Positions 9,291 to 22,027 of a DNA stretch of 32,000 nt are shown here, one piece after another. The position numbers were made by a program, and so were the translations under genes. Numbering within the stretch: position 1 is the stretch's first letter; each line of letters begins with the position of its first letter. The notes under the pieces are model-generated. The model worked only from the letters and a program-made list of their open reading frames with translations. It made no database searches and had not been told where the DNA came from. Source of the stretch: Synechococcus sp. A15-28 (GTDB taxonomy: Bacteria; Cyanobacteriota; Cyanobacteriia; PCC-6307; Cyanobiaceae); contig NZ_CP047931.1 of NCBI RefSeq assembly GCF_014280175.1, positions 600,001 to 632,000 on the forward strand, given 5' to 3'.

Positions 9291-10388
9291 GTGCCCGATC
9301 CCAGGGATCTGCAGCTCAGCAGTTACGACTACCGGCTGCCGCAGGAGCGGATCGCCCAGGCTCCGGCCGAACCACGCCACAGCGCTCGGCTTCTGATGGT
9401 GCCCCAGGCGACCCAGGGGCTCGATGAAGCCAGGCACGGGACGGTCTGGGATCTGCTGGAGGAATTGCAGCCTGGCGATCTTCTGGTGGTGAACGACACC
9501 CGGGTGCTCAAGGCACGGTTGAAGGTGCGTCGCTCCGGTGGTGGGCTGTCGGAGCTGTTGGTGCTGGAGCCCCGCGGGGAGGGGCGTTGGCTTTGCCTGG
9601 CACGACCGGCGAAGCGCATGCGGCCCGGCGATGTGCTCAGCATCGATGGCACCTCGATCAGCCTGACGGTGCTGGATGAGGATGCCGCCAGTGGGGGGCG
9701 TTTGGTCCAGTTCCCGACGGACTGCCGAGATGCGGAGACAATCGAGAGGCTGCTGAATCAGTGGGGCGAGGTTCCACTCCCCCCTTACATCGACCGGCAC
9801 GACCCCGACGATGCTGATCGCTATCAGACTCGCTACGCCGACCGACCTGGCGCGGTTGCGGCACCAACGGCGGGTTTGCATTTCAGCGATGAACTGCTGG
9901 CCGGTCTCCAGCGCAAGGGAGTGGACCTGGCACGCATCACTCTTCACGTGGGACTCGGTACGTTCCGCCCCGTGGAGACGGAAGATCTCACCCAACTGGA
10001 ACTGCACAGCGAGTGGATCGAGGTCAGTGCGGCGGTGGTGGAGGCCATCCAGCGGTGTCCGGGCCGGGTCATTGCCGTCGGCACCACCTGTGTGCGGGCT
10101 CTGGAGGGGGCGGCTCAACAGAACGGTGGAGTTCTGCAACCGCTCACGGGGCCCGTCAACCTCGTGATTCAGCCGGGCTATCGCTTTCGGGTGGTGCAGG
10201 GTCTGGTCACTAACTTCCACTTACCGAAGAGTTCGTTGTTGCTGTTGGTAAGCGCCTTGATTGGACGGGAAAAGTTACTGCGTTTGTATGACGAAGCAAT
10301 TCAAAAGCAGTATCGATTTTTTTCTTATGGCGATGCGATGTGGATTCCACGGGAAGCGATTCTGCAATCAGCTCAGCTGATTCCATAA
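9291..10388 (+). CDS. queA: S-adenosylmethionine:tRNA ribosyltransferase-isomerase QueA
   Basis: 365 aa. ..[12 protein letters not shown].., ..TAGLHF.., ..[16 protein letters not shown].. and ..[12 protein letters not shown] are QueA signatures. The last ~180 nt are AT-rich, unlike the rest of the gene. Confidence 0.9.
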
Positions 10389-11023
10389 AATGGGTCCAAC
10401 CAGGAAATTTTTAGGGGGTCAATGTGGAGAAAGGCTGGCTGAATCATCAGTCTTTTTCCGGTAACGGCAGCTCGAATAGGTTCGCTTGTTTCCATCAATG
10501 ATTTGGCTGTGATGATGGCATGTTGGATGCAAGCGTTGGCATAGGACTGCTTCTCGTCAATGTTGATGCCATGACTGGTCAGTCCGAGCTGGATATCACG
10601 AACGAGCTCTGTTAAGGAAGCTGAGAAAACCTGATTTTTCAAATATGCAGCCTTTACTGCGCCGCAACCTTGATGACTCATCACAAGAAGGACGCTAACA
10701 TTGAGGTCAAGCACAGCATATTCAATCGAACCAGCTGACCCAAACGTGTTGGTATTTCCAGCATTGCGGATTACGAAAAGATCTCCAAAGCCTGCATCGA
10801 AGATCACTTCAACAGGAACTCTTGAATCAGAGCAAGCTAATAATGCAACTCGTGGGTGCTGCCCTCCGGCGAGTTGGTGCTCGCGTGCTTTTGTTGCGTG
10901 GGGGTGATGCGACGTGTTGCTCAAAAAGCGATCAAACCCTCGTTTGAGCTCTTCCACAACCTCGTTTGGATCAAAATACCCTTGGTTTGAGTCAACGTAA
11001 TAAGAGTCAATCATAAATTTCAC
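10373..11023 (-). CDS. Beta-class carbonic anhydrase
   Basis: 216 aa with the two zinc-ligand motifs of beta-CAs, ..[12 protein letters not shown].. (CxDxR) and ..MSHQGCGAV.. (HxxC). No N-terminal hydrophobic signal is visible. Its 3' end overlaps the queA 3' end by 16 nt, convergently. Confidence 0.85.
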
Positions 11024-11144
11024 AAGTTAACTTCCTCATTATTGCTATATAGATTAATGAAAGACGCTTTGGTCAGCAAATGCTAACTTTTTTCGGGATG
11101 TTTCTTGACTCGAGCCTCATAATTGAGGAAAGGTCACAACGTTA

Positions 11145-12557
11145 ATGCTTGCCGTTATTGTTTCACACTCGCTTTTGGCTTTGAAGGAGCCAGGTGCAGA
11201 AATTGAGGCTGCAACGGGGATGCTAGAGAAGCTCCCTTCGTTGCACTTCTCTTTTCAAGGGGCACTCCTATCACTCTCTCTGCTGTTGCTGGTCAGCATA
11301 CTGTCAGAAAAATTAGGCGTAAAGCTTGGAATACCTGGATCAATCTTCTTGTTTTTTGCTGGTCTCTTTTTTCATGTCTCAGGCTTTAGCTTTGAATCTT
11401 TTCCGTTAGAACAAGTTCATGTTGTATCGCTTTGTATATTGTTATTTTTCAGCGGGCTTTCCTTCGATCGGAAGCTTTTAAAAGAAAATAAAGTTCTATC
11501 TAATTCAATAAGTTTGGGTATTTTCGGAACCTTGCTTAGCATGGCTTTATGGCTGTTTTATTTAATCGTAGGTTTTGGTTTTTTTCAAGGTTTTTTTGGT
11601 TATCTAGAGGGTGTAAAGCAAGAGCTTGTCGAATTGCTCGTTGTAACTATTGTTTTTTCAATCGCAGTCCAGGATTGGAATTCATTTATGTTCGTATCTA
11701 AGAGAATCGTAGATTTTCGTTCAATTCTATCCAATATTTTTAGAGTTGAAACATCTATCTCAGCTTCGATCTCCGTAGCTGTTGCCGAGATTCTTGTTCT
11801 TGTTTGGCTCGCTCTGCATCCTGAGTATCAGCTCCTTAACGGATGGCAATTGTTCTCATCGATCTCCCAAGGAATATTCATTGGATCAGTATCAGGAATT
11901 GTTCTCGGTTACATTTTGATGCTGACAATTCGGTATGTCATTACGTCTAAACCTCAACTGGTTTTAGGTGCTGTTGCATTCACCCTGATCGGTTACGTAA
12001 TTTCTTTTTCAATTACTCACCAGGGTGGGTATCTCTGTGCGTTAGTGATGGGCATTGTTACCTCTTTGACCTATCGTAAAAGCTCAACTGAGGAAGAGAT
12101 AGAATTTCTAGCAGAAGAATTGGAGACACTCAATATTGCTTCTGAGGCAATCCTCTTCTTTGCGATTGGCCTTGGACTCAATGCAACTTCCTTCTTTGTT
12201 CACTTGCCAGTGGCGATCTATGTCTGGCTTGGAATCATCATCATCAGGCCAATTACAGTAAATCTCTTTTTCAAGGGCTCTCCTGCCATCGAGACTGAAG
12301 AACGTCAGCTCCTATCGATATGGAGTCCAAAAGGAGCCATTTCAATGGCCTTGGTGGTAACTGCACCAGAGCTGCTGGAGGGAACTTTTGGTATGGAGAT
12401 TGCTGAAATTTTTCCTGAAAGCGCTTCTAGCTTCTCGGCGGATGTGGTTTGCGGTGCTGTTTTGTTCTCGATGATTGTTAAATCCTTGGCGATTCCAAAA
12501 ATTCATTCCCAATTGATTCCCACTCAAAATACTATTACCACCAATCAAGAGGCTTGA
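11145..12557 (+). CDS. CPA-type (NhaP/CPA1-like) cation:proton antiporter-fold membrane protein, atypical
   Basis: 470 aa and highly hydrophobic, with about 11-13 TM segments. ..LLFFSGLSFD.. and ..WSPKGAISMALVV.. resemble the CPA1 consensus. GAGG lies at 11125-11128, upstream of the ATG. Confidence 0.6.
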   Translation: MLAVIVSHSLLALKEPGAEIEAATGMLEKLPSLHFSFQGALLSLSLLLLVSILSEKLGVKLGIPGSIFLFFAGLFFHVSGFSFESFPLEQVHVVSLCILLFFSGLSFDRKLLKENKVLSNSISLGIFGTLLSMALWLFYLIVGFGFFQGFFGYLEGVKQELVELLVVTIVFSIAVQDWNSFMFVSKRIVDFRSILSNIFRVETSISASISVAVAEILVLVWLALHPEYQLLNGWQLFSSISQGIFIGSVSGIVLGYILMLTIRYVITSKPQLVLGAVAFTLIGYVISFSITHQGGYLCALVMGIVTSLTYRKSSTEEEIEFLAEELETLNIASEAILFFAIGLGLNATSFFVHLPVAIYVWLGIIIIRPITVNLFFKGSPAIETEERQLLSIWSPKGAISMALVVTAPELLEGTFGMEIAEIFPESASSFSADVVCGAVLFSMIVKSLAIPKIHSQLIPTQNTITTNQEA

Positions 12558-12560
12558 GTT

Positions 12561-13223
12561 ATGTTGAAAAAAAAGCTGACAGATCGGTACCGGCTCTCAC
12601 GGGCAGTGTTGGTGGGCACAGTTATAACTCTTTTGTTCATGCCCATCTTGGCAACGAATGAAGCGACGACGATTGCAGTCGCATCTGCGCTTGCAGTGGA
12701 TTTTTGTATTTTTATCAAGCAATCCTGGCTCATTGACGTCAATAACACAAGGGATATCTTCCAGCAATTCGATGCGAAAGAATCATCTGTTGCAGAAAGA
12801 ACAATAGCGCTTGTATTTCTGAGTGTGGGCATATTGAGTTTCTGCATTGCGGAATTACATTCAAAGCATGATGTTCTGCCGAACTCAATTCATGTTTTTA
12901 TAAGTTTTATAGCACTATTTTTGACCTGGCTGCAGTTGCACAACGGATTTGCGCTTTACTATGCAAAAAAATACTTTGATATGAATCCGGTTCGACTTGA
13001 TGATCCTGAGGGGCAACTGGGATTTATATTTGAAGGAACAGAGCCAACATTTAGCGATTTTTTATATATTTCTTATTCGATAGGTCTTACTTATTCAATG
13101 ACTGACTGCGGCATCAAGGATTCTGCGGTTAGGCGAATTGTTATCATTCACTGCCTCTCTTCATTTCTCTACGCATCAACAGTACTGTCGATCATATTCT
13201 CATTGGCGACGCAAGTGAGTTGA
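12561..13223 (+). CDS. DUF1345-like integral membrane protein
   Basis: 220 aa. The C-terminal half ..HNGFALYYAKKYF..FSDFLYISYSIGLTYSMTDCGIKDSAVRRIVIIHCLSSFLY.. matches my recollection of the DUF1345 consensus. It starts 3 nt after the antiporter stop. Confidence 0.55.
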   Translation: MLKKKLTDRYRLSRAVLVGTVITLLFMPILATNEATTIAVASALAVDFCIFIKQSWLIDVNNTRDIFQQFDAKESSVAERTIALVFLSVGILSFCIAELHSKHDVLPNSIHVFISFIALFLTWLQLHNGFALYYAKKYFDMNPVRLDDPEGQLGFIFEGTEPTFSDFLYISYSIGLTYSMTDCGIKDSAVRRIVIIHCLSSFLYASTVLSIIFSLATQVS

Positions 13224-13358
13224 TCCGCAAAAGGGTTATCCATAACCTTTAGGGGTATGCATATGTGTGCGTTCCCTATTATTTTGTCGGGCGGCAGCGT
13301 TGGATACTTTCCAAATCCCGTATCTTCTCTACAATCAACTTGTGAACAGAATCAATCC

Positions 13359-13661
13359 ATGTTCGAACTCGAGTATCTCCTAGCTTTCGGCCTGGGTGCA
13401 GGTCTCGTTGCTCTTACCCCCGTTGTAGCTGCTGCTGCTGGAAAGGAAAGCGCTATCACCAAGACTGTTTCTGGCGCCGGACGTGGCTTGACAAAACAAG
13501 GTCTGAAAGCTGGTCTCTTTGTAGGAGGAAAGGTATCTGGACTGTTCACTGGCGTTAAGTCGGGTTTGAATGAGGTGGGTGAGAGCTTCGGCGACATTCT
13601 TGCTGAAGCGAAAGCAGACATGGCTACACCGAAAACTAAGACTTCATCACAAAAGGCTTAA
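13359..13661 (+). CDS. Small membrane-anchored glycine-zipper protein (DUF5132-like), paralog 1
   Basis: The start at the internal ATG is chosen because both paralogs then begin MFELE. It has a hydrophobic N-segment, a Lys/Gly period-4 region GLTKQGLKAGLFVGGKVSGLFTGVKSGL and an acidic tail. Confidence 0.6.
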   Translation: MFELEYLLAFGLGAGLVALTPVVAAAAGKESAITKTVSGAGRGLTKQGLKAGLFVGGKVSGLFTGVKSGLNEVGESFGDILAEAKADMATPKTKTSSQKA

Positions 13662-13664
13662 AGC

Positions 13665-14102
13665 TTGCCAATTACAGTTAAACATCGTGTATTTGGTCGT
13701 GTGAGATTTATTTGGGAGAAGAAATATACCAGTCACGAGATAAAGCTTATGGAATTATCGTTCTTGTATCATTTTCCTGAGTGTCGTTTTCGTTCTGCTT
13801 CAGGTAATACAGGTTGTGTGGTTCTTTTTGATGAAAGTAGTGATCAGCTTTTGTGCCATCAAGTGACTGATTGGATTCAGAATTTCATAGACTTTGCTGA
13901 GTGCCAAGGTCCGTTACTACCACCATCCAAAAGGGATATTCTGATCGACAAGGTTAAAGGTTGGACTGCTCAGTCCATGATTGTTATGGCTATTCTCGGA
14001 TGGATATTACCAATTCTTCCCGGTACTCCATTTTTCTTTGTGGCATGGTGGCTGGGTTGGAGGCCGTCGTCCACAAATCAGTCAGTTGTCGCCGAACCAT
14101 AA
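13665..14102 (+). CDS. Cysteine-free basic HMA-like (CoBaHMA/HMA2-like) domain protein with a C-terminal LPxxPG membrane hairpin
   Basis: TTG start 3 nt after the preceding stop. ITVKHRVFGRVRF ... ECRFRSASGNTGCVVLFDES follows the ferredoxin-like HMA pattern without CxxC. The C-terminus ..ILGWILPILPGTPFFFVAWWLGW.. resembles the DUF454/YbaN and PGPGW hairpins. Confidence 0.6.
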   Translation: MPITVKHRVFGRVRFIWEKKYTSHEIKLMELSFLYHFPECRFRSASGNTGCVVLFDESSDQLLCHQVTDWIQNFIDFAECQGPLLPPSKRDILIDKVKGWTAQSMIVMAILGWILPILPGTPFFFVAWWLGWRPSSTNQSVVAEP

Positions 14103-15170
14103 ACGCAGCCAGCTTTGAGTCATTTGTGCCCTATTGCATTGCATTGCTTCCAATTTTGCGGGCAATTCGATGCTTCTGCAGTATCCATTGTAGATCAAGT
14201 TGATGGTTGAATTGATCTGTTGAATATTCATATTATCTTTCTTCACCCCTGGTAGAAATATTTTCATGCAATGACTCTCTGTATTCCATTCTTCAATGCT
14301 TAAAGACTTATTCTTGTCTTTTAATGCGTTTGCCACGAGATCTGATTCGGGGACTGTGATCGAGCTGTTAAACGTTGTTGGTCCGTTTCGGCATTCATTT
14401 TCGATTTTGATATTGGATGTATTACTTGCGTCTTCGACAATCAGTAGATGCGGTATTGCACGGTGCATGCCTGCAACGCTTAATCGAGTTAGCAGCTGTT
14501 CCGGTTTGTAGTTTTTGCCATCAAGAATTAATGTGAAATGATGATTGCTCCGACCCGAGATCGTCTGTTGTAGGAGATGTAAACGACCTTTCCATGTTTC
14601 GTTGAGACGTAACTGTTGTGATGATGGTAAGCGTAAGCGCAGTAATTTTTCGACCGTTGAAAGTGTTTGACGCGTTGTGTCCCACCAGTTAAGCAAAGGC
14701 TCTAGCAATTGGTCGATCAAGGCTGGACCCTTTTGTGCCATTCCAAGTATTTTTAAAGCATGCAATGGCGTTGGGAGGATTACGATTAAAAGTGTACTTT
14801 TTGACGCACTGTCTAGTATTTCTGACAAGAAGATCAATCTCGTTAAGTCTTCGATCCCTGGAAGTTGCGGAAGCTCGATAGATTGTTTCCCTGCAATGTC
14901 GAGCAATTGCCACCAATCTTTGGCATGTGGATTGAGCTGTTCCCAAAGTCGAGCCAGGCTACAAATATAACTGAAATTTTCTACGATAAAATTCTTCTTG
15001 GCTATGAAATCTGATGTGTCTAAATCAATCTCTCCTGATAGATTAATCAATCTTGTGTCAGCATTTTCCTGCTGAGTATGTAGGAGCCCTTGCAACCATT
15101 GGTGTAGCGCTGAATACCGGTCTGCGCTTACCAAGAGAATCAAGGCACTGATTTCGTCTTCGAATGCCAT
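14082..15170 (-). CDS. ArsA/Get3-like protein lacking the P-loop, with an HSP20/alpha-crystallin-like C-terminal domain
   Basis: 362 aa. ..ILLVSADRYSAL.. aligns by eye to ArsA ..LLVSTDPAHSL.., and ..LIVILPTPLHALKIL.. to switch II ..DTAPTGHTLRLL.. No GKGGVGKT is present. The tail ..MKIFLPGVKKDNMNIQQINSTINLIYNGYCRSIELP.. resembles the ArsA_HSP20 domain. Confidence 0.6.
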   Translation of the reverse strand: MAFEDEISALILLVSADRYSALHQWLQGLLHTQQENADTRLINLSGEIDLDTSDFIAKKNFIVENFSYICSLARLWEQLNPHAKDWWQLLDIAGKQSIELPQLPGIEDLTRLIFLSEILDSASKSTLLIVILPTPLHALKILGMAQKGPALIDQLLEPLLNWWDTTRQTLSTVEKLLRLRLPSSQQLRLNETWKGRLHLLQQTISGRSNHHFTLILDGKNYKPEQLLTRLSVAGMHRAIPHLLIVEDASNTSNIKIENECRNGPTTFNSSITVPESDLVANALKDKNKSLSIEEWNTESHCMKIFLPGVKKDNMNIQQINSTINLIYNGYCRSIELPAKLEAMQCNRAQMTQSWLRLWFGDN

Positions 15171-15235
15171 TGTATCGGGAATGTCTTATTGGATTTCGGG
15201 ATTTTCGGGTAATATCTCCAAAATTCCATTACACC
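15171..15235. promoter_or_regulatory. Divergent promoter/operator region with tandem TTTCGGG repeats
   Basis: A 65-nt spacer lies between divergent starts. ATCGGG sits at 15174-15179, ATTTCGGG at 15193-15200, ATTTTCGGG at 15201-15209 and a TAATAT -10-like hexamer at 15210-15215. The 9-mer TTTCGGGAT recurs at 11091-11099. Confidence 0.3.
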
Positions 15236-15577
15236 ATGTTTGAACTGGAAACACTTGCTGCTTTCGGAGCAGGTGCTGCCTTGATGGCGTTAGCACCAGT
15301 TGTTCGAAAAATGGGCAATGAAGAGCTTGGAGACTCCATGGGGAAGGCAGGTCGCACGATGGCCAAAAGTGGAGTCAAGGTAGGTCTCGTTGCGGCAGAC
15401 GTTGCCGGAAAAGTTGCCAACGGTGTGACGAAGAACGTAGCTGAAGTCGCTGAATCGTTTGTGGACTTGGTTCAAGAAGCTAAGTCTGAGCGCGTTGAAC
15501 CAACAGATATCGACGCGGAACAGCCACCTACTGATGCATCCCGATCTCAGGTCATCACAGAAGTAACTGTCGAATAA
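15236..15577 (+). CDS. Small membrane-anchored glycine-zipper protein (DUF5132-like), paralog 2
   Basis: Begins MFELETLAAFGAGAALMALAPVV, parallel to paralog 1. Small-xxx-small periodicity GVKVGLVAADVAGKVANGV, a conserved ..VAESFVDLVQEAKSE.. and an acidic tail. Confidence 0.6.
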   Translation: MFELETLAAFGAGAALMALAPVVRKMGNEELGDSMGKAGRTMAKSGVKVGLVAADVAGKVANGVTKNVAEVAESFVDLVQEAKSERVEPTDIDAEQPPTDASRSQVITEVTVE

Positions 15578-15622
15578 GTCTGAATTCCATTCCAAATTTA
15601 TAATCTCTCTCCTACAAACATC

Positions 15623-18157
15623 ATGGCCACATCATTTCAGAACAGTTCAGGTTTTGGGGTCGTTGATGGAGGTGCTTCAGCACGAACATCTCGAGATCCT
15701 GCACTGCCACGATTCATTGATCGCATTCTTCATGCATCGTCTCGAAGACTTCGCTTCAGTGTGGAAACTGATTTCAAAGATCCAGATAACTTCACGCGAC
15801 ATATATCAACGCTTTCGTCAGTAGAGCAGGTTCGTTTTAATAGCTGGGCCTCTTGTTACATTGTAATTTTCAAGACTGGATATAAAATTGACGCTCTGCA
15901 ATGGCTAAGTTCACTACCACGGCGATCGCGTGAAATCCCTATTGTTCCAGAAGATTCGCTGACTGATACCGCCACTTCTACAAGCCTTCAGTCTGCTGAG
16001 GAAGAAGAGGAAAAATTTGTTCCAACGCGCATTATTCTCCCAGTTTGTTCTCTTGGTCTGGCCATAGCTGCTGGTCCTCTGGCTCTTCCTCCACTCGCCG
16101 TTGGAGTTTTTATCATTGGCGCAGCGCATCTGAGTTTCAAAAGAGCTTGGGAGGGTCTGAAAAAAGAGCGCAAAATTAATGTTGATTTTCTCGATGCCTT
16201 AGCTGTTTTGCTTCACAGCTTGGAGGGCTTTCTTTTGGGGCCAGCCATGATGATCACCATGATTGAGGGTGGTGAAGCTGTACGAGATGCTACTCAGCGT
16301 ATTGCTCACTCATCAAACACTGATCTTGTTTCCAGCCTTCAATCTGATGTGCGTCTGCTCACAGAAGATGGCGAGAAGATTGTTTCGAGTTTTGACCTTA
16401 GCCCTGGTGATCGTGTTTCGTTCCTGCCAGGAGACAAAATACCGATCGATGGTGTTATTGAGTCTGGTGAAGTTTCCCTCGATGTTGTGAAGCTGACGGG
16501 TGAATCAGTTCCGAGGATGTCGGGTCCCGGAGATGAGATTTTGGCCGGCTTTATTGTTTTGGAAGGCCACATTATTGTTACAACCTCTGCTGTTGGTCAT
16601 GACACGCGCGTCGGGCAGATCACTAAAATGATCGAGTCGGCGCCTGTTTTTGACACGCGTGTCGGAAATTTTGCCGCAAATATCGCCAATCGGTTTGTCA
16701 TCCCGACATTGGTTTTGGCGGGTGTCTCCCTGATGCTCAGTGCAGGCAATATTGCTCAGGCAGCATCTCTGCTCATGTTCGATCTTGGAACGGGGCTGCG
16801 TGTTTCAGTCCCAACTGCGATCATGGCTGCACTGACCAGAGCTGGAAGTCAAGGCCTGCTGATTCGTAGTGGACGTGCTTTGGAGCAGTTGGTTGAAGTT
16901 GATGTTGTCGTTTTTGATAAAACCGGTACGTTGACGGAAGGCCACCCGTCAATTGTTGAGTTTACTGTTTTTGACCAAAATGGAGCCCCCGATGAGTTTG
17001 TTGATGCTGATAAGTTTAAACACCTTTTGCAACTTTCCACATCACTTGAACAGGGGTTGAACCACCCGATCGCCAAGGCGATTCGTGATTTTGCTGAAGA
17101 GCAAGACGTCGACGTGATCGATTGCGAAAGCTGGGATTACAGGGTCGGTCGAGGTGTCGTCGCCACTGTTAATGGTGAGACGGTTCTTCTCGGAAACTTA
17201 AAACTTCTTCGGGAAGAGGGTGTCGAGATCTGGACAGTCGACTCCAAGCCTGAGCTGGACGTTGCTACCCCCATTTATCTTGCAGTTGATGGTCTCTTGG
17301 CCGGTATTCACTACGCCCTTGATCGTGTCAGACCAGATACGTCAGCCATGATCGCTGAATTGCATAACCGGGGTATTGAAGCTCATATGTTGACCGGTGA
17401 CATTTCCTCTGTCGCCCATGCTGTCGCTGCCGATATCGGCTTACAGCCTCATGAAGTTCATTCAGATGCCTTACCTGATCAAAAGGCAGAGTTGGTTCAA
17501 GAGTTCACTGCCGCAGGGAAGAAAGTTGTTTTTGTGGGTGATGGCATCAATGATTCAGCAGCCCTTGCCTATGCTGATGTCTCAGTATCCTTCGCCTCAG
17601 GCAGTGATTTAGCTCGCGAAACGGCTGATATTGTTCTCACGAATGATCGGGTCTCTGATCTGATTGTTGCCCAAGATTTAGCACGTCATACTTTTGCTTT
17701 GGTGAAACAGAACATTGGTATTGTCGGGGTTCCAAACTTATCGGCACTTCTGATCGGTACGTTCCTGCCAGTCAATCCCATCGCGGCTGTTTTCCTTAAC
17801 AATGGTTCCTGTCTTGTGGCAGCTGGCAATGCGATTCGGGCTCTTGGTTTCAAGGCCAAACCGCTACCTGAAATCGAAGCATCAGCTTCTACAGTGAATG
17901 TAGAAACAGTGCTCCCTGATACCGCTGCAGCTCAGGCCACGACAGAAGAAACTACCGACGAGAACGCTTCCTTACCCATCACTCATCTTGATTTGGCAGC
18001 TCTTTCACGTCGTGTTGGACTCAGTTATCAGAAGATCTCAGCCCGTCGTCGACGCAATGATTTTGCTGATTGGATATCGACTCATGATCCTGAAGGTCAT
18101 GGTTGGGAGTACAGCATTGATCTCAAAACATTCTCCATGGTTCCTGCGGTTTCATGA
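15623..18157 (+). CDS. P-type ATPase, P1B-like architecture, atypical (no CPx membrane motif, no CxxC N-domain)
   Basis: 844 aa with TGES (aa 292-295), FDKTGTLT (D432, nt 16916-16918), NHPIAKAI, MLTGD and GDGINDSAAL. The position of the P1B CPC reads LGT (nt 16784-16792). The N-terminal domain is HMA-like, with ..ILHASSRRLRFSV... Confidence 0.9.
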   Translation: MATSFQNSSGFGVVDGGASARTSRDPALPRFIDRILHASSRRLRFSVETDFKDPDNFTRHISTLSSVEQVRFNSWASCYIVIFKTGYKIDALQWLSSLPRRSREIPIVPEDSLTDTATSTSLQSAEEEEEKFVPTRIILPVCSLGLAIAAGPLALPPLAVGVFIIGAAHLSFKRAWEGLKKERKINVDFLDALAVLLHSLEGFLLGPAMMITMIEGGEAVRDATQRIAHSSNTDLVSSLQSDVRLLTEDGEKIVSSFDLSPGDRVSFLPGDKIPIDGVIESGEVSLDVVKLTGESVPRMSGPGDEILAGFIVLEGHIIVTTSAVGHDTRVGQITKMIESAPVFDTRVGNFAANIANRFVIPTLVLAGVSLMLSAGNIAQAASLLMFDLGTGLRVSVPTAIMAALTRAGSQGLLIRSGRALEQLVEVDVVVFDKTGTLTEGHPSIVEFTVFDQNGAPDEFVDADKFKHLLQLSTSLEQGLNHPIAKAIRDFAEEQDVDVIDCESWDYRVGRGVVATVNGETVLLGNLKLLREEGVEIWTVDSKPELDVATPIYLAVDGLLAGIHYALDRVRPDTSAMIAELHNRGIEAHMLTGDISSVAHAVAADIGLQPHEVHSDALPDQKAELVQEFTAAGKKVVFVGDGINDSAALAYADVSVSFASGSDLARETADIVLTNDRVSDLIVAQDLARHTFALVKQNIGIVGVPNLSALLIGTFLPVNPIAAVFLNNGSCLVAAGNAIRALGFKAKPLPEIEASASTVNVETVLPDTAAAQATTEETTDENASLPITHLDLAALSRRVGLSYQKISARRRRNDFADWISTHDPEGHGWEYSIDLKTFSMVPAVS

Positions 18158-18678
18158 CACCAACGCTTTGTTTGCGCCATCGCACCGATAGTCGCTGGAG
18201 GTTTGTGGTGACCCACGCATCCCAGTGTGATTGGGCTCGTCTGCAACGCGATCTTGTCGATGTTTTCCCCAACAGCAGCTGGTCTGTTCGAATCAATCAA
18301 AGGATTGGCTCGATTGTGGTTTGCCGCTTGGCTTCTGCACCACGCCTTCGTCAGGATCCGTTGTCATTGGTATTTGGGCGTGTTGCAAAGCAACTGAACC
18401 TTCAGGGATTTTCCGTCCCTGAAACCCCTTTAATCCCAACGGAAATCGTTGATCGGACCTCTCAGAAGCGGCTGAATGCTCTTCATTCGGTATTTCGTGG
18501 TATTGCCAATGCCGCTTCAGTGTCTTTATCCATATCTACTTTGTTATTGTCTCTGGCCCTCTTTATTATTGGTTTGCTGGGCATCCTTCTGCCATTTTCT
18601 CCAGGGATCTGGTTGTTGGTTGTAGCGACTGCTCTTTTTGACCTAGCCCTTTCTTTTCGTCGTCCTTTCGTCGTCTAA
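18154..18678 (+). CDS. Cysteine-free basic HMA-like (CoBaHMA/HMA2-like) domain protein with a C-terminal LPxxPG membrane hairpin, second copy
   Basis: ATGA start/stop overlap with the ATPase (18154-18157). LCLRHRTDSRWRFVV ... SVRINQRIGSIVVCR follows the HMA-like pattern. C-terminus ..LFIIGLLGILLPFSPGIWLLVVATALF.. Confidence 0.6.
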   Translation: MTPTLCLRHRTDSRWRFVVTHASQCDWARLQRDLVDVFPNSSWSVRINQRIGSIVVCRLASAPRLRQDPLSLVFGRVAKQLNLQGFSVPETPLIPTEIVDRTSQKRLNALHSVFRGIANAASVSLSISTLLLSLALFIIGLLGILLPFSPGIWLLVVATALFDLALSFRRPFVV

Positions 18679-18683
18679 ATCTC

Positions 18684-20780
18684 GTGACAATGCTTGCTGC
18701 GGCTTCACCATCCCCCTGGATCATCCGCAGCGAGCTCGCCGATCGAATTCGTGTCTTCCATCCAGGTTTGTCCTCCTCGCCTGGATTGCGCCAACATTGT
18801 GCGTCTTTGCTGCACCGGACGCATTGGCTGTTGAGTCACCGTATCAATGCTGTTTCTTCAACAGTAGTTATCCGATTCCACCCTCGCCAACGAGGCGATA
18901 TCACGCTCTTACTCGACCGTTGTTTCATTGACCCGGTAGCTGATTCGGGGCTTGAAAAGGCCCTTTCAGCAGAATCGCGCATCACAGACATCACGCACAG
19001 CTCCGCTTTTCAGAAGGCCCTTCGCACTGGCGCGATTTGCGGTTCAATTCTCTTCATTGATCCGATCGTCGCTGTTCCCCCGTTGGGTCTTGGCTTGGTG
19101 GCCACCATGCTGAGCTGGCCATTATTACGTGAATTATTTGAACAAGTGAACGAGCGCCTACAAGGAGAGGCTGATCCGCGACAGTTACTACCCCCTGCAT
19201 CGGTGGAGGTGGCACTGTCCGCTACGTTGATTGGATCAGGCTTGGCGCGTGAATCTCTTGTTGAAGGACTTCTAGGCAGTTCCACTTCGGCGCTTCAGTC
19301 GATGAGTGAGAACACCCAAGGATCAAGTTCGGAATTTTTTGCGTTTCTGGAGCGTCTGAAGACGTCAGTGATGCTGAGATGCATCGATATTCAAACAGAG
19401 GAAAGTACCTTGCTTCCTATTGGTGATCTTCAAGTTGGTCAACGCTATCGCTTGATGGACGATGATCATGTTTATCTGTCTTCCCGAGTTGTCCAAGGGG
19501 AGCTGGTTGTTACGAACAGCCTCAGCGATGGTTCCTCCCTGCCATTTCGTGTGGTGCCGGGTGATCACCTCGCCTTTGGGGCTTTTGTGCTGTCCGGAGA
19601 TGGTATTTGTGAAGTGGTTCAGTCGTTTTCTGAGGTCAGTCTCTTTAAGATCGAAGACACTCTTCTCGAGGAAGATGGATCAAGTGATTTCCAAAAGCGT
19701 TTGTCTTACTTGTACGATCTTCTGCTTCCTCCCGTACAGCTTGGATTTGGTGTTTGGTCGTTGCTGAATGGTCTAACAGAACGAGCCATTGGTTTGCTTT
19801 CATTTAACCCAGCTGAAGATTCTGAACGTTCCAAATTGTCTTCTTCAGAGTCAGCTTTGGTTGATATGGCACTCAATAATGTGCACATTTCAGATTCGCG
19901 CGTTTTTGAGACATTAATGGATGTTAGTCACATCATGATCAGCATCGATGCTTTGCGCCATCTTGGTACCTATTCTTGTCAACAAACCTTGTTAAATGGT
20001 GCTTCTGCACTTGATTGTGATTTACTTCAGATTCTTTGGGCTATTGTTTCTGATTTTGGTGCTGATCCATCTGTTGTCTTATGGGGAATTTTGAGTGATG
20101 TCCAAGAGAAACATCCTGCTCTTCAGTCTCTTGAAGTCAATGTCGGTGAATCGGATCAAGGTCTTTATCGCGTTGTCCTTGAAGGTCAGCCTGTCGTTTT
20201 AATTCGTTTCACGGAGAAGGATGGGGCAATTCATGCATCTTTCTCTACTGAAGAAGCGGATCTTGGTGTTATTACGATTACTTGGCGACCATCTCAAGAG
20301 TTTGAAATGATGTCGTCTCAGCTTTGTAAGCTTGGCATTTCAGTCTCTACGGTTGGTGCTCATTGTGGGCGCACTAAGGAAGCAGAAGACCGTAAGTCCA
20401 GATTGCTAGAGCTTCGTAATCAAGGATGTAAGGTGGCTTATCTTGGAGACGTTATTGACGATATTGCTGCAATGGCAGCAGCTGATATAGCTATAGGTCT
20501 TGCAGAGGATGAACTGGGCTTTATTTCTAAGACCGTTTGCGACATTGTACTTGGAGGCGATATTTTATGGTTGGCTCGTCTTTTTGTTTTGAGCCGAAAT
20601 TTTGTAGAAGCCAATCGTTTTAACACGAATTTGATTGTTGGCTCTTCTGTCCTGCTTGCAGCAGCCTCTCTTGTTGCCACCTTCTCGCCATTGCAAACGA
20701 TATTGCTATTTAACTCTGCTCCAATCATCGCTGAGATCAATACACTCAGGTCTCTCAACGGTTCAAGTTCCAGGCTATAG
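18684..20780 (+). CDS. Degenerate P-type ATPase paralog (probable pseudo-enzyme) with an N-terminal HMA-like domain
   Basis: 698 aa and collinear with P1B ATPases, but TGES becomes SDGS (aa 281-284), DKTGTLT becomes IDALRHLGT (D422, nt 19947-19949) and GDGINDxxAL becomes GDVIDDIAAM. TM segments are retained at both ends. Confidence 0.7.
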   Translation: MTMLAAASPSPWIIRSELADRIRVFHPGLSSSPGLRQHCASLLHRTHWLLSHRINAVSSTVVIRFHPRQRGDITLLLDRCFIDPVADSGLEKALSAESRITDITHSSAFQKALRTGAICGSILFIDPIVAVPPLGLGLVATMLSWPLLRELFEQVNERLQGEADPRQLLPPASVEVALSATLIGSGLARESLVEGLLGSSTSALQSMSENTQGSSSEFFAFLERLKTSVMLRCIDIQTEESTLLPIGDLQVGQRYRLMDDDHVYLSSRVVQGELVVTNSLSDGSSLPFRVVPGDHLAFGAFVLSGDGICEVVQSFSEVSLFKIEDTLLEEDGSSDFQKRLSYLYDLLLPPVQLGFGVWSLLNGLTERAIGLLSFNPAEDSERSKLSSSESALVDMALNNVHISDSRVFETLMDVSHIMISIDALRHLGTYSCQQTLLNGASALDCDLLQILWAIVSDFGADPSVVLWGILSDVQEKHPALQSLEVNVGESDQGLYRVVLEGQPVVLIRFTEKDGAIHASFSTEEADLGVITITWRPSQEFEMMSSQLCKLGISVSTVGAHCGRTKEAEDRKSRLLELRNQGCKVAYLGDVIDDIAAMAAADIAIGLAEDELGFISKTVCDIVLGGDILWLARLFVLSRNFVEANRFNTNLIVGSSVLLAAASLVATFSPLQTILLFNSAPIIAEINTLRSLNGSSSRL

Positions 20781-20815
20781 GGGTTGATTGTTAATTGATA
20801 TCTACAAATTCGAAT

Positions 20816-21421
20816 TCAGTTAACAAGTATCTTGACTCCGATGGCGATAAACAATGCCCCGCTTATGTACGACAGTCGTTTTTGACATAATCGATTTTTT
20901 AAACATTTTCCAGAGTAAACTGCCGTAATGGCTAAAAGAACGTTTGCGGCGACTGCTCCGGAGAAAATACTTTCAGCAGATATATTTGGACCTGCTGCTA
21001 AGGCAAGGAGTGCAAGTTGTGTGCGATCCCCGAATTCGGCTAAAAATGTTGTTGTGAAGGAGTTGCGTATGACGGCGTTGGCTGCCATCTTTGGTGCTGG
21101 TAATTGGAATTGGCTTGTATCGCATTCATCTTTGGCGACGTCAATCTTTGCTTCCAATCGTCTTGCTTCAATAATTGCGTTTGTGCCAAAGAGAAGGAAC
21201 GCAATACCCGAGACAATCTGAATGGTGTCGATGGATACGATCGATCTCATCCATACCCCAGCAGTGATCCAAAGTCCTGCCCCTATTGTGAGGGCTGAAA
21301 CGCTTCCAGTGAAAACCCAACGTGCTTTATGTCTTGCTGCCAGCAGAAGGGTAGTAATGAATGACTTATCTCCAACGCCTGCGATTGCGACAGTGGCGAA
21401 AGCAGTTGTGAACCCTGCCAC
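20816..21421 (-). CDS. UPF0016 / GDT1 / TMEM165 (Mnx-type) Ca2+/Mn2+:H+ exchanger family protein
   Basis: 201 aa in a two-repeat architecture. The second repeat has the canonical ExGD(K/R)(T/S) motif (..LAEFGDRTQLA..). The first repeat reads ..IAGVGDKSFIT.. GTG start. Confidence 0.75.
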   Translation of the reverse strand: MAGFTTAFATVAIAGVGDKSFITTLLLAARHKARWVFTGSVSALTIGAGLWITAGVWMRSIVSIDTIQIVSGIAFLLFGTNAIIEARRLEAKIDVAKDECDTSQFQLPAPKMAANAVIRNSFTTTFLAEFGDRTQLALLALAAGPNISAESIFSGAVAANVLLAITAVYSGKCLKNRLCQKRLSYISGALFIAIGVKILVN

Positions 21422-21499
21422 GATCTTTAAAAACTTTACAGAAACCCTATCGGAAAAGTCTCATGCCCGTTGTTTCCGTCAGTACATGTGGATATGGCT

Positions 21500-22027
21500 T
21501 CAGTGATTTGTGGGTTTCTTGATCAGCCAAGCTGTGCGCTGTCCGGCTCGATGGATCCGTTCAAACTCGAGGCCCATTCTGCGAAATCCAAGTTGACCAC
21601 TTGATAGTTGTACGGTCTGGGGCAAGCGCTTCACCTCGAGGAGCGAACAAATCTCGTGGCTAGAGAGTTCGATTTTTGTTGTTTTGAGCAAATGGAGAAG
21701 CTCAATTTTTTCACGCAGTAAACGTAGTTTGGAATACTTTCTGACGTCGTCTTGGAAAGGTTGCTCTGTATTTGTCTCGGTTGTTACTAGTTCATGATGG
21801 CTGCTGTTGGAGTCCACGGTGACGACTTCAGCTACCAGGGGGGCCTTCGGATTGTCCCGTCCGAGGTGGTCGTAGATAAGACCCGTTTCCTCCTGACGGA
21901 CCAAGGTGCGCATGCCTCGTCGAATTGGCTCAATTCCGAGTTCGCGAATGATGAGAAGCAGTTCAACGCGTGATATCCCTAGATCCGCCTCCAGGCTGCC
22001 AAGGCTGACTGCTTGCTGAGAGCTCAT
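21500..22027 (-). CDS. Hypothetical protein with an N-terminal helix-turn-helix-like segment (possible regulator)
   Basis: 175-aa ORF of intermediate G+C. ..LGSLEADLGISRVELLLIIRELGIEPI.. looks like an HTH. No family recognised. Confidence 0.45.
   Translation of the reverse strand: MSSQQAVSLGSLEADLGISRVELLLIIRELGIEPIRRGMRTLVRQEETGLIYDHLGRDNPKAPLVAEVVTVDSNSSHHELVTTETNTEQPFQDDVRKYSKLRLLREKIELLHLLKTTKIELSSHEICSLLEVKRLPQTVQLSSGQLGFRRMGLEFERIHRAGQRTAWLIKKPTNH

What the first reader, a model, noticed from the sequence alone, without database searches (positions are those of the whole stretch)
13665..18900. Four separate proteins open with the same cysteine-free, arginine-rich HMA-like (CoBaHMA/HMA2-like) domain
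Seen in sequence, the four N-termini are as follows. (1) 13665: ITVKHRVFGRVRF...ECRFRSASGNTGCVVLFDES. (2) ATPase 15623: RILHASSRRLRFSV...VEQVRFNSWASCYIVIFKTG. (3) 18154: LCLRHRTDSRWRFVV...SVRINQRIGSIVVCR. (4) 18684: WIIRSELADRIRVFHPGL...SHRINAVSSTVVIRFHP. All four show a first strand of the form H/x-x-x-x-R-x-R-(F/V). All four also have a later strand pair typical of ferredoxin-like HMA domains. None has the GMxCxxC metal site. Two are fused to ATPase bodies and two to an LPxxPG membrane hairpin. Established knowledge, from recollection: CoBaHMA is a recently defined HMA subfamily with conserved basic residues. It was first noticed in calcyanin and is often fused to membrane proteins, including P-type ATPases. 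Inference: these domains bind an anionic ligand or lipid head-group rather than a soft metal. Their four-fold use suggests a multi-subunit membrane assembly.
Basis: partly seen in the sequence, partly recalled or inferred. Interest (0 to 1): 0.7.

Follow-up and report, generated by a model that had tools for sequence, protein, structure and literature searches.

The report
Four CoBaHMA-headed membrane proteins, calcyanin-type cluster
Four neighbouring membrane proteins of a marine Synechococcus do start with the same arginine-rich, metal-site-less relative of the heavy-metal-binding (HMA) domain. Their gene cluster is the one that, in freshwater relatives, also carries calcyanin, the marker gene for intracellular calcium-carbonate granules.

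Summary
ORFs 13665, 15623, 18154 and 18684 each open with an ~75-residue domain in which R12, R14 (strand b1) and an Arg in b2 are invariant or nearly so across 46 orthologues. Profile comparisons link all four to bona fide Pfam HMA_2 proteins (81-98% against 0.2-0.4% for reversed controls). Three of them link to the CoBaHMA domain of a calcyanin-like protein. A profile built from these domains retrieves mostly HMA_2 and HMA proteins from 1.84 billion sequences. AlphaFold models of H1 and H3 show b0-b1-a1-b2-b3-a2 followed by a helical hairpin.

Corrections: Pfam's own HMA_2 threshold is met by none. The domains are not literally cysteine-free. H4 lacks the b0 histidine and has its own invariant His/Cys. 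H4 is a catalytically dead ATPase copy.

Context: the genes sit in an 11.7-kb low-GC island with a carbonic anhydrase, a Na/H exchanger, GDT1, two DUF5132 proteins and a Walker-A-less Get3-like protein. The cluster is syntenic in 13 picocyanobacterial genome loci. In 11 related loci (6 genomic, 5 metagenomic) a CoBaHMA+3xGlyZip (calcyanin-like) gene lies inside or beside the cluster; the window lacks it.

This is a new member of a known domain kind. Its function (docking onto an anionic partner in a Ca/carbonate-handling membrane assembly) is inferred, not shown.

The parts
13668..13901 (+). H1 N-terminal CoBaHMA-type domain (aa 2-79 of ORF 13665-14102)
   Evidence: Family HMM envelope. AF2 strands 4-9, 12-16, 41-45, 50-54 and helices 23-36, 61-78, with pLDDT 81-93. 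hhalign 80.9% to HMA_2 anchors and 86% to the calcyanin-like N-terminus.
13929..14051 (+). H1 C-terminal helical hairpin with LPILPGTPFF (DUF454 C-terminal part)
   Evidence: Pfam DUF454 E=1.3e-5, below cutoff. Orthologues carry precomputed PF04304. AF2 helices 89-114 and 122-129.
15719..15931 (+). H2 N-terminal CoBaHMA/HMA_2-type domain (aa 33-103 of ATPase ORF 15623-18157)
   Evidence: HMM envelope. hhalign 97.6% to HMA_2 anchors, 93% to the calcyanin-like N-terminus and 69% to classical HMA. The Gloeothece orthologue (41% identical, N-terminus included) scores above the PF19991 cutoff.
15623..18157 (+). H2: active-looking P1B-type ATPase, with M4 = SVPT instead of CPC
   Evidence: TIGR01525 444.7 bits against a cutoff of 346. 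TGES, DKTGT, HP, TGD and GDGIND are invariant, as are M4 RVSVPTAIMAA and M6 LNNGS.
18166..18399 (+). H3 N-terminal CoBaHMA-type domain (aa 5-82 of ORF 18154-18678)
   Evidence: HMM envelope. AF2 strands 5-10, 14-19, 43-48, 53-58 and helices 27-37, 69-83. hhalign 91.4% to HMA_2 anchors, 96.2% to H2 and 83% to the calcyanin-like N-terminus. No Pfam annotation in 53 homologues.
18457..18654 (+). H3 C-terminal helical hairpin with LPFSPG
   Evidence: AF2 helices 102-143 and 150-167. hhalign 82% to the H1 hairpin, against 0.2% for the reversed control.
18714..18935 (+). H4 N-terminal HMA_2-type domain (aa 11-84 of ORF 18684-20780). Ser replaces the b0 His; H29, C30 and H38 are invariant.
   Evidence: Pfam HMA_2 E=0.0094 for the window sequence; orthologue consensus 2.2e-5 at 24.9 bits. 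hhalign 95.7% to anchors. Conserved residues.
18684..20780 (+). H4: catalytically dead P-type ATPase paralogue
   Evidence: E1-E2_ATPase 29.6 bits. Partial TIGR01512/01525 matches. DKTGT is replaced by SIDAL, TGES by SDGS, TGD is absent and GDGIND is GDVIDD.
13359..13661 (+). small1: DUF5132-type single-TM protein, directly upstream of H1 (3-nt gap). The ORF is listed from 13257; the likely start is MFELE.
   Evidence: Pfam DUF5132 E=2.8e-5. Orthologues start at MFELE. Called as 100 aa in L017. Junction sequence.
15236..15577 (+). small2: paralogue of small1, upstream of the ATPase
   Evidence: hhalign small1 against small2 99.8%. Conserved acidic helix ExxExFxDxxAEAK.
14082..15170 (-). Get3/ArsA-like protein without a Walker A motif, with a C-terminal ArsA_HSP20 domain
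   Evidence: Pfam ArsA_HSP20 E=2.1e-7. NF050088 Get3_fold_NosAFP, weak. No GxxxxGK[ST] in the window protein or its 11 orthologues.
10373..11023 (-). Beta-carbonic anhydrase, at the left end of the low-GC island
   Evidence: NF011765 E=2.3e-27. Pro_CA in L017. GC drop.
11145..12557 (+). Na+/H+ exchanger family protein (found only in the marine form of the cluster)
   Evidence: Pfam Na_H_Exchanger E=6.9e-18. Present in L001 and absent from the freshwater loci.
12561..13223 (+). DUF1345 membrane protein
   Evidence: Pfam E=2.8e-29. Also lies next to the orthologous ATPase in Gloeothece.
20816..21421 (-). GDT1/UPF0016 divalent cation:proton antiporter
   Evidence: Pfam GDT1 E=2.1e-33.
21500..22027 (-). 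Conserved 175-aa ORF of unknown function, at the right end of the island
   Evidence: Syntenic in L001-L004, L009, L010, L018 and L020. No family hit.

Best explanation
SHOWN. The four ORFs carry paralogous copies of one cytosolic N-terminal domain of the HMA_2/CoBaHMA branch of the HMA superfamily.
- Topology is b0-b1-a1-b2-b3-a2.
- Two Arg in b1 are invariant and one Arg in b2 is invariant or nearly so. A His in b0 is present in H1-H3.
- There is no CxxC metal loop.
- Each copy is tethered to the membrane by a different body: an apparently active P1B-like pump whose ion site lacks Cys (H2), a catalytically dead copy of such a pump (H4), and two DUF454-type helical hairpins (H1, H3).

SHOWN. 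They form the conserved core of a picocyanobacterial gene cluster with two DUF5132 proteins, a Walker-A-less Get3-like protein, a carbonic anhydrase, DUF1345 and GDT1. In freshwater relatives this cluster also encodes a fifth CoBaHMA protein with three GlyZip repeats, which matches the published description of calcyanin (ccyA). The window holds a marine, low-GC, ccyA-less version with an added Na/H exchanger.

INFERRED. The shared domain is a common docking or regulatory module. Its basic sheet face binds an anionic partner: anionic lipid head-groups, as proposed for CoBaHMA, and/or the conserved acidic helix of the DUF5132 proteins encoded just upstream. This would bring the pump, its dead paralogue and the two hairpin adaptors together on one membrane. 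The assembly would handle cations, protons and bicarbonate, probably in connection with intracellular Ca-carbonate chemistry.
For: Domain homology:
- 46-sequence alignment with invariant R12 and R14 and nearly invariant b2 Arg.
- Inter-group hhalign up to 96%, with controls at most 2%.
- All four groups against four proteins that pass Pfam HMA_2 (33-51 bits): 80.9, 97.6, 91.4 and 95.7%, against 0.2-0.4% reversed.
- Those anchors against classical HMA 89.8%, and H2 against classical HMA 69.3%.
- A profile of the window domains and their relatives finds 198 representatives in 1.84e9 proteins. Of 134 scanned, 92 are HMA_2 and 33 are HMA.
- AF2 models of H1 and H3 (pLDDT 79 and 81) show the topology plus hairpin.
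- HMA chains are matched at TM 0.47-0.58.

Bodies: catalytic motifs are intact in H2 and lost in H4. The H1 and H3 hairpins are homologous.

Cluster:
- Synteny in 13 genome loci, a near-identical contig and partly in Gloeothece and Nostoc plasmids.
- A CoBaHMA+3xGlyZip ORF lies between the CA gene and small1 in 6 loci and in 5 further metagenome loci.
- That ORF shows the weak PdsO match in GlyZip2, the central Gly-Pro and the conserved W/E in GlyZip3 that Benzerara 2022 describe for calcyanin.

Coupling: H2 and H3 overlap by ATGA. small1 and H1 are separated by 3 nt.

Literature: in Microcystis the ccyA neighbourhood holds CoBaHMA-DUF454, a second CoBaHMA protein and two DUF5132 proteins. NhaP-type, UPF0016 and Ca-ATPase genes co-vary with ccyA. 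On the Fischerella plasmid, ccyA lies beside two cation ATPases and a carbonic anhydrase.

Acidic DUF5132 helix.
Against: - No window domain passes Pfam's HMA_2 cutoff. H1 and H3 are invisible to Pfam.
- No b4 strand is modelled in H1 or H3.
- H4 barely aligns to H3 (6.4%) or to the calcyanin-like N-terminus (0.4%), lacks the b0 His, and has invariant His/Cys that could bind metal.
- The window itself has no ccyA, so the link to carbonate granules is by association only.
- No binding, localisation or transport data exist.
- The calcyanin identification rests on matching a published description, not on alignment to a reference sequence.
Confidence: 0.6

Rival explanations
1. The domains are metal sensors or metal-binding regulatory domains after all. 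They would use His/Cys ligands other than CxxC: the b0 His in H1-H3, H29/C30/H38 in H4, and the b3 Cys pair found in most H2 orthologues (the window's H2 has only one of them). They would tune the pump to a cation such as Mn2+, Zn2+ or Ni2+. On this view the cluster is a metal-homeostasis island (GDT1/UPF0016 proteins are Mn/Ca transporters).
For: Conserved His/Cys positions. The parent superfamily is metal-binding. GDT1 is in the cluster. The pump body is closest to heavy-metal P1B ATPases.
Against: - No CxxC in any copy.
- The His/Cys sets differ between paralogues, whereas the arginines are the shared feature.
- The pump's M4/M6 lack Cys, His and acidic ligands.
- Carbonic anhydrase, a Na/H exchanger and, in relatives, a calcyanin-like gene are not expected in a transition-metal island.
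Confidence: 0.15
2. The basic face binds a protein, not a lipid. Each CoBaHMA domain would dock the conserved acidic helix (ExxExFxDxxAEAK) of a DUF5132 protein encoded just upstream. The domain's role would be purely to assemble DUF5132-containing hetero-oligomers.
For: The gene pair 'DUF5132 then CoBaHMA-headed protein' recurs in the window (twice), in Gloeothece, in Nostoc and in Microcystis. The acidic helix is conserved in 27 sequences.
Against: No interaction was predicted or measured here. H3 and H4 have no DUF5132 gene of their own. CoBaHMA occurs in many architectures without DUF5132.
Confidence: 0.2
3. The basic beta-sheet marks an RRM- or eIF1-like nucleic-acid-binding module, since eIF1-like folds rank above HMA in the structure search.
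For: Foldseek hits to eIF1/SUI1 (TM 0.46-0.55), which share the topology with an extra N-terminal strand. Three weak RRM_1 hits among the 46 sequences.
Against: All of these hits are non-significant. Sequence profiles point to HMA_2/HMA, not to RRM or SUI1. All four proteins are membrane-anchored transporters or hairpin proteins.
Confidence: 0.03
4. There is no common domain. The resemblance would be chance similarity of Arg-rich N-termini, or Tat-type (S-R-R-x-F) signal peptides.
For: The short motif alone occurs 14 times in the six-frame translation. H2 reads SSRRLRF.
Against: Full-length collinear profile matches with clean controls. AF2 folds the segment as a globular domain. No hydrophobic h-region follows the RxR: the first hydrophobic segments start at residues 100-132.
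Confidence: 0.02

Closest known systems
CoBaHMA domain of W-type calcyanin (CcyA), e.g. Synechococcus sp. RS9917 (Benzerara et al. 2022, PMC8890360; Gaschignard et al. 2024, Proteins 92:776, not readable here)
   Same: An extra b0 strand with His, conserved basic residues in b1 and b2, and no CxxC. H1, H2 and H3 align to the N-terminus of the calcyanin-like ORF of related loci at 83-93% hhalign probability.
   Different: The domain is fused here to a pump, a dead pump and DUF454-type hairpins instead of three GlyZip repeats. H4 lacks the His and does not align to the calcyanin-type domain. No b4 is modelled in H1 or H3.
Pfam HMA_2 (PF19991) N-terminal domain of cyanobacterial P1B-type ATPases and 'HMA2 domain-containing proteins' (Gloeothece verrucosa PCC 7822 WP_013334282.1 and WP_013334278.1; Nostoc flagelliforme WP_225912762.1 and WP_100903442.1)
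   Same: The pump is orthologous (41% and 38% identity, N-terminus included). The HxxPGRxRxR...RxN signature is the same. The neighbours are the same (DUF5132, DUF1345, DUF454, and a truncated ATPase-like HMA2 protein).
   Different: The window copies score below the Pfam cutoff (at most 16 bits; consensus at most 25). H1 and H3 are not detected at all.
Microcystis aeruginosa PCC 7806 ccyA neighbourhood (Bruley et al. 2025, bioRxiv 10.1101/2024.07.07.602159)
   Same: A CoBaHMA-DUF454-C-terminus protein, a second CoBaHMA protein and two DUF5132 proteins lie next to ccyA. NhaP-type, UPF0016 and Ca-ATPase genes co-vary with ccyA.
   Different: In Microcystis the calcyanin itself has no CoBaHMA domain, and no CoBaHMA-ATPase pair, Get3-like gene or carbonic anhydrase is reported in the neighbourhood. 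The window has the pumps but no ccyA.
Classical HMA domains (PF00403) of CopZ/Atx1 chaperones and CopA/ZntA pumps
   Same: A ferredoxin-like a/b sandwich at the N-terminus of a P1B pump, plus small single-domain partners. This suggests domain-domain docking between adaptor and pump. The a1-b2-b3-a2 region aligns in register.
   Different: There is no GMxCxxC loop. There is an added b0, and arginines sit on the sheet. The partners are membrane-anchored rather than soluble. The pump's M4 is SVPT, not CPC.

Membership tests
CoBaHMA (conserved-basic-residue HMA) | Ferredoxin-like HMA core (b1-a1-b2-b3-a2-b4) | tested here: inconclusive
   AF2 of H1 and H3 gives b1-a1-b2-b3-a2 at pLDDT 80-93, but no b4. 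Foldseek matches HMA chains at TM 0.47-0.58 with E about 0.7-1, which is not significant. H2 and H4 were not modelled.
CoBaHMA (conserved-basic-residue HMA) | Extra N-terminal strand b0 carrying a conserved histidine | tested here: met
   b0 is modelled in H1 (4-9) and H3 (5-10). His7 is invariant in H1 and H3 and present in 10 of 14 H2 sequences. It is NOT met in H4, where Ser occurs in 11 of 11.
CoBaHMA (conserved-basic-residue HMA) | Conserved basic residues in b1 and b2 | tested here: met
   R12 and R14 are invariant and the b2 Arg nearly invariant in 46 sequences of all four groups. Only three positions are conserved here, whereas the literature speaks of four.
CoBaHMA (conserved-basic-residue HMA) | Absence of the CxxC metal-binding motif | tested here: met
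   No CxxC in any of the four domains.
CoBaHMA (conserved-basic-residue HMA) | Detectable similarity to the calcyanin N-terminal domain (founding members) | tested here: met
   hhalign to the N-terminus of the calcyanin-like ORF of L003-L010 gives H1 86%, H2 93% and H3 83%. H4 gives 0.4%, which is not met. No reference calcyanin sequence was available.
Pfam HMA_2 (PF19991) | Score at or above the gathering cutoff (30 bits) | tested here: not met
   Window H4 scores 16.3 bits and the other three give no hit. Orthologue consensus scores are H4 24.9 and H2 19.0 bits, with none for H1 or H3. Ten H1/H3 orthologues give none.
Pfam HMA_2 (PF19991) | Profile-level homology to members that pass the cutoff | tested here: met
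   hhalign 80.9-97.6% to four anchors scoring 33-51 bits. 92 of 134 proteins retrieved by the family profile match HMA_2 at E<=1e-3.
Classical HMA (PF00403) | GMxCxxC metal-binding loop between b1 and a1 | tested here: not met
   Absent in all four.
P1B-type (heavy-metal) P-type ATPase, for H2 | P-type catalytic motifs (TGES, DKTGT, TGD, GDGxND) and the family model | tested here: met
   TIGR01525 444.7 bits against a cutoff of 346. Motifs are invariant.
P1B-type (heavy-metal) P-type ATPase, for H2 | Cys-containing M4 motif (CPC, SPC, CPH and similar) | tested here: not met
   M4 is RVSVPTAIMAA in the window's H2 and its 12 picocyanobacterial orthologues aligned. The SVPT core is also kept in the Gloeothece and Nostoc pumps.
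P-type ATPase, for H4 | Phosphorylated Asp in DKTGT | tested here: not met
   The aligned segment is SIDAL or SRSCL. TGES and TGD are also lost.
DUF454 / YbaN (PF04304), for H1 and H3 | Score at or above the gathering cutoff over the family model | tested here: not met
   H1 scores 25.6 bits against a cutoff of 35.1 and covers only profile positions 10-42 of 115. H3 gives no hit. H1 orthologues do carry a precomputed PF04304 mark. The H1 and H3 hairpins are homologous.
Calcyanin (ccyA) gene cluster | Presence of ccyA (variable N-terminal domain plus three GlyZip repeats) | tested here: not met
   tblastn with the L003 calcyanin-like ORF finds nothing in the window. It is present in 6 of 13 genome loci and in 5 metagenome loci with the same neighbours. 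The rest of the window's genome could not be searched.

The most novel reading that the evidence does not exclude
The island would be a transferable toolkit for an intracellular Ca/carbonate-handling compartment. In it, the CoBaHMA domain would act as a shared address or dock. It would assemble an unusual Cys-less pump, its dead paralogue, two hairpin adaptors and (where present) calcyanin onto one membrane, through the acidic helix of the DUF5132 proteins and/or anionic lipids. A pseudo-Get3 would insert the C-terminal hairpins. Marine Synechococcus carrying the ccyA-less form would then still run part of this chemistry, for example Ca/Sr/Ba sequestration or pH/bicarbonate buffering.
Probability: 0.2. 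Interest if true: 0.8.

Novelty: new member of a known kind. Interest (0 to 1): 0.55.

Why it matters
Calcyanin is so far the only marker for intracellular amorphous calcium-carbonate formation in cyanobacteria, and how it works is unknown.

In picocyanobacteria a calcyanin-like gene sits inside a fixed cluster. That cluster holds four more CoBaHMA-headed membrane proteins, a pump and its dead copy, DUF5132 proteins, a pseudo-Get3, a carbonic anhydrase and cation/proton exchangers. This gives a concrete and small candidate gene set that can be tested by knock-outs, localisation and binding assays.

A natural ccyA-less marine version offers a ready comparison.

The work also shows that Pfam HMA_2 misses half of these domains, so the family is under-counted in annotation.

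Tried and rejected
- Direct MAFFT of the four window N-termini was uninformative.
- Pfam and NCBIfam on the window proteins and N-terminal fragments gave only one sub-threshold HMA_2 hit.
- The first database search, with the mixed 46-sequence profile, returned only 12 proteins.
- A profile search of PDB sequences found no relative.
- Foldseek against the PDB found nothing significant.
- An exact look-up of the ATPase failed.
- No tRNA gene and no convincing flanking direct repeats mark the island ends.
- The Gaschignard 2024 CoBaHMA paper could not be read, and no supplements are held for Benzerara 2022. Published CoBaHMA alignments and reference calcyanin sequences could therefore not be used.
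- Tat-signal and chance-motif readings were rejected.
- The metagenome scan for the calcyanin-like ORF gave only 5 close relatives.

Full report
**Setting.** The window is about 65% G+C except for an 11.7-kb stretch (about 10.37-22.03 kb) at 39-51% G+C. The flanks encode queA, a PLP-dependent enzyme (PALP family), a Cys/Met-metabolism PLP enzyme, psbC and psbD, so the host is a cyanobacterium.

The island carries twelve ORFs:
- a beta-carbonic anhydrase
- a Na/H exchanger
- DUF1345
- small1
- H1
- a Get3/ArsA-like gene on the opposite strand
- small2
- H2 (a P-type ATPase)
- H3
- H4
- GDT1
- a 175-aa ORF of unknown function

**Observation.** The four quoted N-termini are there. A direct four-sequence alignment was useless, and Pfam saw only H4, at E=0.0094.

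I therefore fetched relatives of the ATPase from one genome per species. Thirteen picocyanobacterial loci (marine Synechococcus, Vulcanococcus, Cyanobium) carry the same gene order, and I extracted orthologues of each of the four proteins.
- In the joint 46-sequence alignment, R12 and R14 are invariant and the Arg of the next strand pair is nearly invariant.
- Profile-profile comparison between the four orthologue sets gives H1-H2 91.8%, H2-H3 96.2%, H1-H3 76.9%, H2-H4 62.8%, H1-H4 49.5% and H3-H4 6.4%. Reversed or shuffled controls give at most 2%.
- A family HMM hits only these four among 423 six-frame segments of the window. In the leave-one-group-out runs read for H1 and H4, the left-out ORF still ranks first.
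- The short HxxxxRxR motif alone is common in this Arg-rich translation, with 14 hits. The evidence lies in the whole domain.

**What the domain is.** The closest plasmid-borne relatives of the pump are in Gloeothece verrucosa PCC 7822 and Nostoc flagelliforme. There it lies next to DUF5132, DUF1345 and DUF454 genes and 'HMA2 domain-containing' proteins. Four of those proteins pass Pfam HMA_2 (33-51 bits).
- All four window groups align collinearly to these anchors: 80.9, 97.6, 91.4 and 95.7%, against 0.2-0.4% reversed.
- The anchors align to eight classical HMA sequences at 89.8% and H2 does so at 69.3%, in register over a1-b2-b3-a2. I wrote those eight sequences from memory and validated them against PF00403.
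- A profile made only of the window domains and database relatives finds 198 cluster representatives among 1.84 billion proteins. Of 134 scanned, 92 match HMA_2 and 33 match HMA. Others carry DUF454, ATPase or YegS lipid-kinase bodies.
- AlphaFold2 with deep alignments models H3 (pLDDT 81) and H1 (pLDDT 79) as b0-b1-a1-b2-b3-a2 followed by a long helical hairpin.

Taken together, the sequence evidence for HMA_2/CoBaHMA is strong. The fold evidence is compatible with it but not discriminating.

- No window domain reaches Pfam's HMA_2 cutoff. H1, H3 and ten of their orthologues are invisible to it, as is the calcyanin-like ORF.
- The domains are not cysteine-free. H2 keeps a Cys in b3, and H4 has invariant H29, C30 and H38. 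H4 also has Ser in place of the b0 His.
- H4 is not an ATPase in function. DKTGT, TGES and TGD are lost.
- H2 has every catalytic motif, but an invariant SVPT in M4 and NNGS in M6. It therefore lacks the Cys ligands of heavy-metal pumps.
- The H1 and H3 hairpins are homologous.
- small1 and small2 are DUF5132 paralogues (99.8%).
- The Get3-like protein lacks a Walker A motif in the window and in all 11 orthologues.

**Context that changes the reading.** In six of the 13 loci, a roughly 310-aa ORF lies between the carbonic anhydrase gene and small1. Its features are:
- an N-terminal HxxPxRLRL domain, which aligns to H1, H2 and H3 at 83-93%;
- three glycine-zipper repeats with a central Gly-Pro;
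- a weak PdsO match in the second repeat;
- conserved W and E in the third repeat.

These are the features Benzerara et al. 2022 give for calcyanin. Five further metagenome loci with this ORF show the same neighbours as far as each contig extends: two carry the full gene order, one a large part of it, and two short contigs only the CA/DUF1345 side.

The window, the near-identical contig L017, and two other marine Synechococcus loci (L001, L002) lack this ORF in the sequence available. The window, L001 and L017 have a Na/H exchanger there instead; L002 does not. Only these marine copies are low in G+C.

The literature links the same families to ccyA:
- In Microcystis, CoBaHMA-DUF454, a second CoBaHMA protein and two DUF5132 genes lie beside ccyA. 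NhaP-type, UPF0016 and Ca-ATPase genes co-vary with it.
- On the Fischerella plasmid, ccyA lies near two cation ATPases and a carbonic anhydrase.

**Mechanism.**
- Shown: four paralogous basic domains on four membrane bodies; tight gene packing, with an ATGA overlap of H2 and H3 and a 3-nt gap between small1 and H1; conserved synteny.
- Inferred: the domain is cytosolic. This rests on P1B topology and on the first hydrophobic segments starting at residues 100-132. Its Arg-bearing sheet would dock an anionic partner and so gather the pump, the dead pump and the adaptors on one membrane.
- Candidate partners: anionic lipids (the published CoBaHMA hypothesis), or the conserved acidic helix ExxExFxDxxAEAK of the DUF5132 proteins encoded just upstream.
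- The link to Ca-carbonate handling is by gene association only.

**Novelty.** The domain family and two of its architectures are already described, so this is a new member of a known kind. I did not find the following in the searchable literature:
- the fixed picocyanobacterial cluster with five CoBaHMA proteins;
- the dead-pump partner;
- the pseudo-Get3;
- the ccyA-less, low-GC marine form.

The key CoBaHMA paper could not be read.

Noticed in passing
L003:6598-7527(-), L004:1333-2262(-), L005:1046-1972(-), L006:6669-7583(-), L009:7658-8569(-), L010:2367-3308(-); L018-L022: A ~310-aa CoBaHMA + 3xGlyZip ORF lies between the carbonic anhydrase gene and small1 in freshwater relatives of the cluster. 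It matches the published description of calcyanin. It is absent from the window, L001 and L002.
   Followed up: yes
window 10373-22027: The whole cluster is a 39-51% G+C island in a ~65% G+C host. The same holds for marine L001 and L002 (36-50%). Freshwater Vulcanococcus and Cyanobium copies have host-like G+C. No tRNA gene or flanking repeat marks the ends.
   Followed up: partly
window 18684-20780: H4 is a P-type ATPase paralogue that has lost DKTGT, TGES and TGD in all orthologues. Gloeothece has a comparable truncated 'HMA2 domain-containing protein' next to its pump. A conserved dead pump encoded beside a live one is unusual.
   Followed up: partly
window 18768-18800 (H4 aa 29-38): H29, C30 and H38 are invariant (11 of 11). 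C37 is present in 9 of 11 orthologues and is Thr in the two marine copies, which have a His at position 35. These residues lie in or after helix a1 and are specific to the H4 copy. They may form a non-CxxC metal site.
   Followed up: no
window 16796-16831 and 17783-17839 (H2 M4 and M6): The pump's transmembrane signature is RVSVPTAIMAA (M4) and LNNGS (M6) in the window and its 12 picocyanobacterial orthologues aligned. The SVPT and NNGS cores are also kept in the Gloeothece and Nostoc pumps. It has no Cys, His or acidic ligand, so the substrate is unclear.
   Followed up: partly
window 14082-15170 (-): A Get3/ArsA-like protein with an ArsA_HSP20 domain lacks a Walker A motif in the window and in all 11 orthologues. 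It is encoded among proteins with C-terminal hairpins or anchors. It may be a pseudo-chaperone for membrane insertion.
   Followed up: partly
window 13359-13661 and 15236-15577: Two DUF5132 paralogues each lie just upstream of a CoBaHMA-headed gene. They share a TM segment, a basic GRxxxKxGxKxG stretch and an acidic helix ExxExFxDxxAEAK. The same gene pairing recurs in Gloeothece, Nostoc and Microcystis. The longest ORFs (from 13257 and 15164) probably overshoot the true MFELE starts.
   Followed up: partly
L017:5512-5949 (equivalent to window 13665-14102): In the near-identical public assembly GCA_902572615.1 the H1 gene (TTG start) was not called at all. This family is therefore under-annotated.
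   Followed up: no
P0187-P0315: Many 330-450-aa representatives contain two copies of the domain. Single cases are fused to a YegS/DAGK lipid kinase, an ACT domain or a KipI-type CT_C_D domain. In Gloeothece a YegS-family lipid kinase and a DUF1269 (GlyZip-like) gene lie in the same neighbourhood (L015:15941-18930).
   Followed up: no
window 18154-18157: The H2 stop codon and the H3 start codon overlap as ATGA, which suggests translational coupling. H4 starts 6-12 nt after the H3 stop.
   Followed up: yes
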